IMG/VR virus record: IMGVR_UViG_2850756110_000011
Reading direction: 5' to 3' (one strand)
DNA: 38,644 nt
Source: a virus
Lineage: Duplodnaviria > Heunggongvirae > Uroviricota > Caudoviricetes
Of this stretch, positions 9,572 to 11,091 are shown one piece after another. The position numbers and the translations under genes were made by a program. Position 1 is the first letter of the stretch, and the number at the start of each line of letters is the position of its first letter. The notes under the pieces were generated by a model. The model saw only the letters and a list, made by a program, of their open reading frames with translations. It was not told where the DNA came from and ran no database searches.

Positions 9572-11091
9572 AGGCAGTATGACTTTCCGTGAGACAGATG
9601 CTGGCCAACGTGGGATATTTAACGCGGGTTAACATCGTTGTCAGAGCCGCATGGGTGAGCTGTTGCTACACCCCGGTATTTCCACCACGGAGGCCAGCAT
9701 GAACAACAATAACACATTGTACGTCGGGTTAGATGTTCACAAAGAATCGATTACTGTCGCTTATGCTATCAATTCAGAACCTGTTGAACTGATGGGTAAA
9801 ATTGGCACATCACCTACTGATATTCAGAATCTTTGTAAACGTCTCAGGTCAAAGTCATCGCAGGTCAGTATCGTTTATGAAGCGGGGCCCTGTGGTTATG
9901 GACTTTATCGTCGGCTGGTGAAATCCGGTTTTGACTGCATGGTCTGCGCCCCCTCACTTATCCCGAAAAAACCGGGGGAGCGGGTTAAAACCGATCGCCG
10001 TGATGCCATCAGACTTGTGCGTTCACTGCGTGCAGGAGATCTTTCTGCTGTCTACGTACCCGGCATTGAAGATGAGGCATTCCGGGATTTGGCCCGGGCA
10101 TGGGCATCTGCCCGCGATGATTTACGGCATGCAAGGCAACGTCTGAAATCGTTTCTTCTGGTTCATGGGGTCCATTATGTCGGGCGAGCAGATTGGGGCC
10201 CTGCACACCGACGCTGGCTCAGCAAATACTCATTCGAAAGTCCCTGGCGACAATTAGCTTTTGACGAACACCGTCGTACAATAGAAGACCGGCAGGCACA
10301 ATGTGAACGGCTGGAATCCGCCCTGAAGGAGGCCGTTACCGAATGGAGGCTGTATCCGGTAGTAGAGGCGCTGCAAGCCATGCGAGGGATTCAGTTTATT
10401 ACTGCGGTTGGATTAATTTCTGAACTGGGTGATCTGACCCGTTTTGAACATCCACGACAACTGATGTCATGGTTTGGTATCACGCCATCAGAATATTCAT
10501 CGGGTGGAAGCAGACATCAGGGCAGCATTACCAAAGCCGGAAACAGCTATGCCAGAAAGCTATTGGTCGAGGCAGCGTGGAGTTACCGTCATCCGGCACG
10601 CATCAGTCCGGCAATACAAAAAAGGCAGGAAAATTTACCCCGCCCCGTCATTGACAGAGCATGGGATGCTCAACTCAGGCTTTGTAAGAGGTATCGAAAA
10701 CTTCAGGCCAAAGGAAAGAATGTCAATATTACAATTGTTGCTGTTGCACGTGAGCTGGCGGGTTTTATCTGGGATATGGGCCGAATAGCAATGTCTGTCG
10801 CACAACAACCACAATGTCACAAATAAAAAATGAGAATAACCAGTTCCCTGAAGGCGACGTAGCCCGGTACAAGAGTAACCCACGTTAGCGCTTGGCGACG
10901 GCGGAACAAAGCTGATTCGCGACGTAAGAAAGTGGCAGGCTCATATGACGGACCTCTGTAATGCGGTATCCAACCCGCGAATATCAGCGTGATTCACCGT
11001 CGGATTTACTGCTACGTCGCCCTCAGGGAATTAAACCTAAAAAGAAAATCGTCAAAATTAGAGATTCCGGTTTGACACGGAAAGTCATATC
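9572..11091 (+). mobile_element. IS110-family element, copy 2 (near-identical to copy 1, opposite orientation in the window)
   Basis: Same ends as copy 1; a few substitutions between copies visible in the overlapping ORF translations. Confidence 0.8.
9699..10826 (+). CDS. IS110-family (DEDD-type) transposase/recombinase
   Basis: Same 375-aa protein as 6448-7575; the 391-aa ORF call is an upstream extension. Confidence 0.9.
   Translation: MNNNNTLYVGLDVHKESITVAYAINSEPVELMGKIGTSPTDIQNLCKRLRSKSSQVSIVYEAGPCGYGLYRRLVKSGFDCMVCAPSLIPKKPGERVKTDRRDAIRLVRSLRAGDLSAVYVPGIEDEAFRDLARAWASARDDLRHARQRLKSFLLVHGVHYVGRADWGPAHRRWLSKYSFESPWRQLAFDEHRRTIEDRQAQCERLESALKEAVTEWRLYPVVEALQAMRGIQFITAVGLISELGDLTRFEHPRQLMSWFGITPSEYSSGGSRHQGSITKAGNSYARKLLVEAAWSYRHPARISPAIQKRQENLPRPVIDRAWDAQLRLCKRYRKLQAKGKNVNITIVAVARELAGFIWDMGRIAMSVAQQPQCHK

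What the first reader, a model, noticed from the sequence alone, without database searches (positions are those of the whole stretch)
10827..11091. About 265-bp structured 3' non-coding region of the IS110-family element: candidate bridge/seek RNA
Both copies have a long non-coding tail after the transposase stop (here and at 6184-6447). It contains a 20-bp near-perfect inverted repeat (TTCCCTGAAGGCGACGTAGC ... GCTACGTCGCCCTCAGGGAA) enclosing about 147 nt, plus 15-bp subterminal repeats (TATGACTTTCCGTG / CACGGAAAGTCATA) at the element ends. IS110/IS1111-family recombinases are known to use an element-encoded structured ncRNA that base-pairs with target and donor DNA.
Basis: partly seen in the sequence, partly recalled or inferred. 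Interest (0 to 1): 0.6.

Follow-up and report, generated by a model that had tools for sequence, protein, structure and literature searches.

The report
Guide RNA gene of ISSso6
The non-coding tail of this insertion sequence (ISSso6) encodes the structured guide RNA that steers it into the terminal repeats of IS66-type transposons; this kind of RNA is known, and one was already predicted for this element.

Summary
Both copies of the element carry an identical 3' non-coding tail with a 20-bp stem and 14-bp (not 15-bp) subterminal inverted repeats.

The element is ISSso6, an IS110-family element of the IS1111 group. Durrant et al. 2024 (Supplementary Table 5) already list it with "Detected Bridge RNA End: RE".

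Forty-three relatives (61-81% transposase identity) share a roughly 190-nt structure at window 10841-11033. It has 46 base pairs, 98% canonical, and 17 of them show compensatory changes.

An internal loop holds two guide segments:
- GACGUAAG (10921-10928) copies the left flank.
- UUAGCGCU (10885-10892) is complementary to the right flank.

In the relatives both segments change together with their own flanks (0 of 20,000 permutations reach the observed match). All 13 ISSso6 insertions examined lie in GTAAG^CG(T/C), the tip of IS66-family inverted repeats.

AUAUCAG (10981-10987) copies the element's right end and is the likely donor guide. The second donor guide is unresolved.

A conserved TTGACA at the right end would form a promoter across the circle junction.

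Transcription and function were not tested. Verdict: a real but already known kind of RNA; low novelty.

The parts
9566..9573 (+). Left target flank GACGTAAG. GTAAG is the tip of the IS66-family (ISEc22-like) inverted repeat. AG (9572-9573) is the likely shared core.
   Evidence: It is identical to the RNA segment at 10921-10928 (repeat D2).
9574..9577 (+). Left terminal extension GCAG of ISSso6.
   Evidence: Identity between the two copies begins here or at the shared GTAAG. Relatives have xCAG at this position.
9575..9580 (+). CAGTAT, a candidate -10 box of the circle-junction promoter.
   Evidence: In the in-silico junction it lies 17 nt downstream of TTGACA. CAGTA is conserved in relatives. 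This is an inference.
9578..9591 (+). Left subterminal inverted repeat TATGACTTTCCGTG.
   Evidence: inverted repeat I2.
9699..10826 (+). ISSso6 transposase gene, 375 aa: DEDD domain plus Transposase_20 domain.
10827..10840 (+). Linker between the stop codon and the RNA. It varies in length and sequence among relatives.
10841..11033 (+). Conserved guide RNA (bridge/seek RNA) core, closed by basal stem P1 (10841-10863 with 11011-11033).
10885..10892 (+). Right target guide UUAGCGCU, on the 5' side of the target-binding loop. GCGCU pairs with AGCG(T/C) of the target top strand.
10895..10920 (+). Hairpin P5, which caps the target-binding loop.
   Evidence: Five of its 8 pairs show compensatory changes.
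10921..10928 (+). Left target guide GACGUAAG, on the 3' side of the target-binding loop. It is a same-sense copy of the left flank plus the core, so it pairs with the bottom strand.
10962..10979 (+). Hairpin P6.
10981..10988 (+). AUAUCAG, a same-sense copy of the right end plus core and the candidate left donor guide. It is followed by C, which tracks the first base of the right flank (handshake-like).
   Evidence: (repeat D6); the ISEc11 parallel is.
10995..11002 (+). Nearly invariant CACCGUCG; the CCGUCG part is invariant. Its role is unknown; a protein contact or pairing with GACGG at 10947-10951 is possible.
11006..11012 (+). UUACUGC. It is the 3' strand of helix P7 (partner 10956-10961) and is also complementary to GCAGTA at the left end. 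It is a possible right donor guide, but this is unresolved.
11072..11077 (+). TTGACA, an outward-facing -35 box conserved in all relatives.
11076..11089 (+). Right subterminal inverted repeat CACGGAAAGTCATA.
11090..11093 (+). Right terminal extension TC plus the core AG. The target continues as CGT at 11094-11096.
6241..6433 (-). The same RNA core in the second ISSso6 copy. That element spans about 6181-7699 on the minus strand, with the transposase gene at 6448-7575.

Best explanation
The 3' tail of ISSso6 encodes the element's guide RNA, called a bridge RNA or seekRNA in the IS110/IS1111 family.

The RNA most likely arises from the transposase transcript. That transcript would be driven by a promoter formed only when the excised element circularises, joining TTGACA in the right end to CAGTAT in the left end.

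The RNA folds into a basal 22-bp stem that carries two arms.
- Arm A ends in an internal loop. [quoted passage not shown] Its 3' side (GACGUAAG) pairs with the bottom strand to the left. Together they select (C)GTAAG^CG(T/C), the tip of IS66-family terminal inverted repeats.
- Arm B carries AUAUCAG, a copy of the element's right end. It probably holds the donor DNA.

The DEDD transposase then exchanges strands at the shared A(G) core.

Shown here: the structure, the guide-to-flank covariation, and the insertion specificity. Inferred: transcription, processing, protein binding, donor pairing and the promoter.
For: Identity of the element:
- It is named ISSso6 in public annotation.
- It has the DEDD_Tnp_IS110 and Transposase_20 domains.
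- Durrant 2024 Supplementary Table 5 lists ISSso6 as IS1111 group, with a bridge RNA detected in the right end.

Structure:
- The RNAalifold consensus over 43 relatives has 46 pairs, 98.2% canonical, and 17 pairs with compensatory change. Column shuffles average 7.8 such pairs (0 of 500 reach 17), and slid-partner controls give at most 6.
- Frequent G-U pairs would be A-C mismatches on the other strand, which favours the plus strand.

Target guides:
- The 6 nt upstream of the invariant AG in the left guide equal the left flank at 3.52 of 6 positions on average, against 1.71 +/- 0.20 when flanks are permuted (0 of 20,000).
- The right guide forms Watson-Crick pairs with the right flank at 4.30 of 6 positions, against 1.88 +/- 0.20 (0 of 20,000).
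- Wrong-sense controls score 1.67 and 1.12.
- In this element the left guide matches 8 of 8 positions at both insertions in the window.
- All 13 ISSso6 insertions examined (two in the window, eleven in a Shigella plasmid) have GTAAG on the left. Every right junction recovered reads TCAG or TCGG followed by CG(T/C), and one carries an extra G.
- The top-strand match lies 5' of the bottom-strand match, as reported for IS1111-type seekRNAs.

Donor side:
- A 10-nt exact repeat, ATATCAGCGT, occurs in the RNA and at the right junction.
- The base after AUAUCAG equals the first flank base in 34 of 39 relatives and covaries with the right guide (mutual information 0.73).
- ISEc11, whose seekRNA is experimentally proven, has the same layout, including a copy of its own right end, ATATAAA.

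Expression:
- TTGACA is invariant next to the right repeat.
- No promoter or terminator flanks the RNA.
Against: - No transcript, RNA-protein complex or transposition assay is available for ISSso6.
- No Rfam 15 family matches the region, even at E <= 10.
- The right target guide of ISSso6 itself pairs over only 5 positions, one of them a G-T wobble at most sites.
- The second donor guide was not found. The only segment complementary to the left end (UACUGC) is also one strand of a covarying helix.
- The right end is nearly invariant among close relatives, so the donor guide cannot be tested by covariation within that set. Only one distant group (the L059 type) shows a partial co-change.
- The candidate -10 box (CAGTAT) matches the consensus at only 3 of 6 positions.
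- The relatives are phylogenetically related, so the permutation values overstate independence.
Confidence: 0.88

Rival explanations
1. The RNA is a target-only seekRNA. It selects the IS66-repeat target, but the element's ends are recognised by the transposase through the 14-bp subterminal repeats. On this reading AUAUCAG and UACUGC are structural or coincidental, not donor guides.
For: Siddiquee et al. describe only target matches for IS1111-type seekRNAs and suggest that end recognition differs from IS110. No clear right donor guide was found, and UACUGC sits in a covarying helix. The long subterminal repeats are conserved.
Against: A 7-nt copy of the right end (10 nt including the flank) sits at the same relative place in ISSso6 and in the unrelated ISEc11. 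The base that follows it tracks the target, which is what a handshake guide would do. Durrant et al. report donor guides for three IS1111 elements.
Confidence: 0.25
2. The tail is a cis-acting element without guide function: a terminator or mRNA-stability structure for the transposase gene, or a DNA-level transposase-binding site or cruciform.
For: It is a long GC-rich stem directly after a gene. The reverse strand also folds well, z = -4.1.
Against: No T-run follows the stem, and no terminator was called on the plus strand. A terminator or DNA site would not need loop sequences that change together with the flanking target in more than 20 lineages. G-U pairs are strand-specific. The region between the stop codon and the stem is not conserved.
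Confidence: 0.04
3. The tail encodes a small protein or an antisense ORF (for example the 82-aa ORF at 10635-10883 on the minus strand).
For: An ORF is listed mechanically.
Against: The alignment of relatives shows indels that are not multiples of three, and paired compensatory substitutions rather than codon-like variation. The ORF mostly overlaps the transposase gene on the opposite strand.
Confidence: 0.01

Closest known systems
ISEc11 seekRNA (IS1111 group; Siddiquee et al. 2024, PMC11187229)
   Same: The RNA lies downstream of the transposase gene. The guide complementary to the top strand comes first, then a small hairpin, then a same-sense copy of the left flank (ISEc11: CAGUAUUUU, hairpin, GUGAAAAUA). 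A copy of the element's own right end lies further 3'. A -35-like box sits just inside the right subterminal repeat. Insertion is site-specific and oriented.
   Different: The transposases are only about 20-24% identical, and ISSso6's is longer (375 against 339 aa). The target differs: the IS66-family repeat tip GTAAG^CGY rather than GTGAAAATACTG. The duplicated core is 1-2 bp rather than 4 bp. The ISSso6 RNA has not been tested experimentally.
IS621 bridge RNA (IS110 group; Durrant et al. 2024, PMC11208160; Hiraizumi et al. 2024)
   Same: A DEDD recombinase works with a structured RNA. Internal-loop guide segments pair with opposite strands on either side of a short core. The left guides are same-sense copies, and a handshake-like extension is present.
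   Different: The IS621 RNA lies in the 5' (left) end with its own promoter, and its left guide precedes its right guide. In ISSso6 the RNA is in the 3' end, the guide order is reversed, the subterminal repeats are long (14 bp), the architecture is a three-way junction, and no clear right donor guide was found.
IS4321/IS5075 (IS1111 group; Partridge and Hall 2003, as cited)
   Same: These are IS1111-group elements with subterminal repeats that insert, in one orientation, at a fixed position in the terminal inverted repeats of another transposon family.
   Different: They target the 38-bp repeats of Tn21-family transposons. ISSso6 targets the GTAAGCG tip of IS66-family insertion sequences.

Membership tests
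IS110 family, IS1111 group insertion sequence | DEDD (RuvC-like) transposase with the C-terminal Transposase_20 domain and the G-x-x-P-x4-S/T-G motif | tested here: met
   PF01548 scores 44 bits and PF02371 scores 84 bits. G260, P263, S268 and G269 are invariant in the alignment of relatives.
IS110 family, IS1111 group insertion sequence | Subterminal inverted repeats of 7-17 bp with short terminal extensions | tested here: met
   The repeats are 14 bp and perfect, at 9578-9591 and 11076-11089. The extensions are GCAG on the left and TC(AG) on the right.
IS110 family, IS1111 group insertion sequence | The longer non-coding region lies downstream of the transposase gene | tested here: met
   There are 267 nt after the stop codon and about 121 nt before the ATG. 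The same holds in the relatives.
IS110 family, IS1111 group insertion sequence | Oriented insertion at one specific sequence, with no duplication or a very short one | tested here: met
   All 13 insertions are at GTAAG^CG(T/C), in the same orientation relative to the IS66 repeat. Only A(G) is shared by the two junctions.
IS110 family, IS1111 group insertion sequence | Catalogued as such | tested here: met
   The PGAP product name is 'IS110-like element ISSso6 family transposase'. Durrant Supplementary Table 5 gives the group as IS1111.
Bridge RNA / seekRNA | Conserved secondary structure in the long non-coding end, on the transposase strand | tested here: met
   17 covarying pairs, 98.2% canonical pairs, and strand-specific G-U pairs.
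Bridge RNA / seekRNA | [quoted passage not shown] | tested here: met
   For ISSso6 itself.
Bridge RNA / seekRNA | IS1111-type order: the top-strand match lies 5' of the bottom-strand match | tested here: met
   The right target guide (10885-10892) precedes the left target guide (10921-10928).
Bridge RNA / seekRNA | Donor-binding loop with left and right donor guides (bridge RNA in the sense of Durrant) | tested here: inconclusive
   AUAUCAG equals the right end and has a parallel in ISEc11. No unambiguous right donor guide was found.
Bridge RNA / seekRNA | The RNA is transcribed, binds the transposase, and is required for circle formation and insertion | not testable with these tools
   No expression or biochemical data are available. 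A junction promoter is only inferred.
Bridge RNA / seekRNA | Match to a curated covariance model | tested here: not met
   No Rfam 15 hit at the gathering score or at E <= 10. The models built by Durrant et al. did detect an RNA in the right end of ISSso6.

The most novel reading that the evidence does not exclude
ISSso6 is an RNA-guided 'transposon hunter'. Its guide loop is fixed on the conserved GTAAGCG tip shared by IS66-family elements, so it parasitises, and splits the end off, another insertion-sequence family. Its clade would also use a hybrid form of donor recognition: an RNA copy of the right end, plus either protein recognition of the left subterminal repeat or opening of a helix to recognise it. 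I found no description of the IS66 targeting or of this RNA architecture in the searchable literature.
Probability: 0.3. Interest if true: 0.4.

Novelty: already known. Interest (0 to 1): 0.25.

Why it matters
It confirms that a common Shigella and E. coli insertion sequence belongs to the RNA-guided IS110/IS1111 recombinases. It also maps the element's guide segments and its target, the tip of IS66-family inverted repeats, at single-base resolution.

The Burkholderiaceae relatives supply more than 20 naturally reprogrammed guide/target pairs on one conserved scaffold. That could help in designing IS1111-type guide RNAs. It adds no new principle.

Tried and rejected
- Rfam at the gathering score and at E <= 10 found nothing in the element.
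- I first read AGCUGAUU (10909-10916) as a guide antisense to the right junction. The alignment shows it is the 3' strand of the covarying hairpin P5.
- I first read GGCAG...UAUGAC (10936-10949) as a copy of the left end. GGCAG is part of helices P4/P3 and is conserved whatever the left end. The hexamer varies among relatives while their left repeats do not.
- I looked for a right donor guide after CCGUCG and before hairpin P6, in close and distant relatives. No consistent complementarity to the left end turned up.
- A literature search for ISSso6 or for IS1111 elements targeting IS66 repeats gave only passing mentions.
- A promoter/terminator scan found no dedicated promoter for the RNA and no terminator after it.
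- I did not build a covariance model or scan metagenomes. The alignment of 43 relatives was sufficient.

Full report
**The observation**

The region 10827-11091 follows the stop codon (TAA, 10824-10826) of a 375-aa IS110-family transposase, encoded at 9699-10826.

The 20-nt inverted repeat is at 10844-10863 and 11011-11030, 95% complementary. The subterminal repeats are at 9578-9591 and 11076-11089; they are 14 nt long and perfect.

A second copy on the minus strand (about 6181-7699) is identical across the tail except for one base at the right junction, TCGG instead of TCAG.

The tail folds far better than shuffled sequence, z = -4.6.

**What the element is**

Megablast against plasmids finds 56 near-full-length copies, mostly in Shigella. 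They are annotated "IS110-like element ISSso6 family transposase".

ISSso6 appears in the ISfinder-derived sets of both key papers. In Durrant et al. 2024, Supplementary Table 5, it is listed as "Detected Bridge RNA End: RE; IS110 Group: IS1111". So the existence of a guide RNA in this tail has already been predicted in print. I found no description of its guides or its target.

**Where it inserts**

Both window copies interrupt the tip of an IS66-family terminal inverted repeat. Intact tips in the window read GTAAGCGT (3680 on the plus strand, 13529 on the minus strand).

I read a whole Shigella dysenteriae virulence plasmid that carries further ISSso6 copies. Together with the window this gives the following picture:
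- All 13 left junctions recovered are ...GTAAG|GCAG-TATGAC.
- Right junctions are GTCATA-TCAG|CG(T/C)... One has an extra G, and one in the window reads TCGG.
- The flanking elements are annotated ISEc22, ISSfl3 and other IS66-family members.

The target is therefore (C)GTAAG^CG(T/C), with A(G) shared by donor and target.

**Conserved structure**

One genome-collection scan with a transposase alignment returned 80 loci at 49-81% identity, mostly from Burkholderiaceae. Forty-five unique 3' tails from elements with at least 60% identity align well.

The sequence between the stop codon and the stem varies. So does the sequence between the stem and a TTGACA box. The roughly 190 nt in between are conserved.

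RNAalifold on 43 sequences gives a basal stem P1, helices P2-P4 leading to an internal loop capped by hairpin P5, and a second hairpin P6. The pair counts are:
- 46 pairs, 98.2% canonical.
- 17 pairs with compensatory change, against a shuffle mean of 7.8 (0 of 500 shuffles reach 17).
- At most 6 such pairs when the partners are slid by 1-3 columns.

Several pairs are mostly G-U. They would be A-C on the other strand, so the plus strand, the same as the transposase, is the RNA strand.

A further helix P7 (10956-10961 with 11006-11011) is weak in ISSso6. It is 6-8 bp with compensatory changes in the more distant relatives. With P7 the RNA becomes a three-way junction.

**Target guides**

The internal loop between P4 and P5 is hypervariable. 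Its 3' side ends in an invariant AG; in ISSso6 it reads GACGUAAG (10921-10928). That is identical to the left flank at both window insertions.

Its 5' side, UUAGCGCU (10885-10892), is complementary to AG+CG(T/C) of the right flank.

Across relatives with different insertion sites the two sides follow their own flanks. Examples of left-side matches to the left flank are L003 GAACAAG, L036 TGCAAAG and L037 CACTAG. Examples of right-side sequences complementary to the right flank are L009 CUCCUGUU against AACAGGAG, L014 AAUGGACU against AGTCCATT, and L031 GGUCUGCU against AGCAGACC.

| Measure | Observed | Permuted flanks | Permutations reaching observed |
|---|---|---|---|
| Left guide identical to left flank, of 6 | 3.52 | 1.71 +/- 0.20 | 0 of 20,000 |
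| Right guide Watson-Crick to right flank, of 6 | 4.30 | 1.88 +/- 0.20 | 0 of 20,000 |

Wrong-sense controls give 1.67 and 1.12.

The core-pairing dinucleotide of the right guide also fits the junctions. It is CU wherever the right junction reads AG (19 of 19). It is UU where the junction reads AA (12) or AG (7, a U-G wobble).

The top-strand match lies 5' of the bottom-strand match. That is the order reported for IS1111-type seekRNAs and the reverse of IS621.

ISEc11, whose seekRNA is experimentally proven, happens to be present on the same plasmid. It shows the same layout.

**Donor side**

AUAUCAG (10981-10987) is identical to the last bases of the right end including the core. With the following CGU it forms a 10-nt exact repeat of the right junction (repeat D6).

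The base after AUAUCAG equals the first base of the right flank in 34 of 39 relatives. It also shows the second-highest mutual information in the alignment, with the matching position of the right target guide. This behaviour resembles the handshake guide described for IS621 (that comparison is from my own knowledge of Hiraizumi et al. 2024).

ISEc11 has an analogous copy of its own right end, AUAUAAA.

In one distant group the right end changed from ATATCAG to ATGAGAG, and the RNA reads AUCAGAG. Two of the three changed positions agree. This is weak support from a single event.

I could not identify the right donor guide. UACUGC (11007-11012) is complementary to GCAGTA of the left end, but it is also the 3' strand of P7.

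**Expression**

No sigma-70-like promoter lies upstream of the RNA and no intrinsic terminator follows it. The linker after the stop codon is not conserved.

TTGACA (11072-11077) is invariant in all relatives, including those at about 50% identity. In an in-silico circle junction it lies 17 nt upstream of CAGTAT (9575-9580).

This matches the junction promoter described for ISEc11 and other family members. The RNA is therefore most likely processed from the transposase transcript of the circular form. This is an inference.

**Rival explanations**

- A terminator, stability element or DNA-level site does not explain loop sequences that follow the flanks, nor strand-specific G-U pairs.
- A coding reading is contradicted by the indel and substitution pattern.
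- The one serious alternative is mechanistic. The RNA may guide target choice only, with the ends recognised by the protein through the 14-bp subterminal repeats.

**Verdict**

The feature is a member of a known class, in a catalogued element for which a right-end bridge RNA was already listed.

What is added here:
- the secondary structure;
- the exact target guides and a candidate donor guide;
- the IS66-repeat target;
- a set of naturally reprogrammed relatives.

Interest is low to moderate.

Noticed in passing
window 35868-35946 (-), 2595-2682 (+), 2493-2569 (+): Rfam gathering-score hits to RybB sRNA, C4 antisense RNA and isrK. The last two are typical of P4-like or cryptic prophage regions.
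   Followed up: no
window 9300-9568, 9569-9573 and 11094-13529: Nested insertions. An IS1 copy is interrupted by an ISEc22-like IS66-family element, whose left repeat tip is in turn split by ISSso6. The same IS66-ISSso6 arrangement occurs on S. dysenteriae plasmid NZ_CP026809.1 at 9527-13441.
   Followed up: partly
window 6181-6184 (-) and about 7625 (-): Copy A differs from copy B in three ways: TCGG instead of TCAG at the right junction (the core position), a 1-nt deletion upstream of the ATG, and one substitution in the transposase gene. The junction difference could be a footprint of a mismatched core, or simply a mutation.
   Followed up: no
window 3680 (+), 13529 (-), 18624 (+), 21753 (-), 35120 (+): Unoccupied GTAAGCG(T/C) sites. 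They match the left guide at 5-6 of 8 positions, whereas both occupied sites in the window match 8 of 8 (they have AC before GTAAG). On the plasmid, 7 of 11 occupied sites have C before GTAAG.
   Followed up: partly
L083 (NZ_CP026809.1), record positions about 127300-134800: Three ISSso6 copies have left junctions spaced exactly 2,990 bp apart, with identical flanks for two of them. This looks like a tandem amplification of an ISSso6 plus IS66-fragment unit.
   Followed up: no
L035:3677-3818; L017 left junction; L042 and L084 right junctions: Probable defective or odd copies among the relatives. L035 lacks most of the target-binding arm. The left flank of L017 does not match its guide. L042, and one plasmid copy in L084, have one extra base at the right junction.
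   Followed up: no
window 10943-10948 and 10867-10872: A hypervariable hexamer (AUAUGA in ISSso6) and the opposing loop between helices P2 and P3 vary among relatives. They show no obvious relation to the flanks or the element ends. Their function is unknown.
   Followed up: partly
L002, L004, L005, L010, L018, L019, L027 and others: Many Burkholderiaceae assemblies hold the relative as a stand-alone contig of about 1.5 kb. That is typical of a collapsed multi-copy repeat and suggests high copy numbers in those genomes.
   Followed up: no
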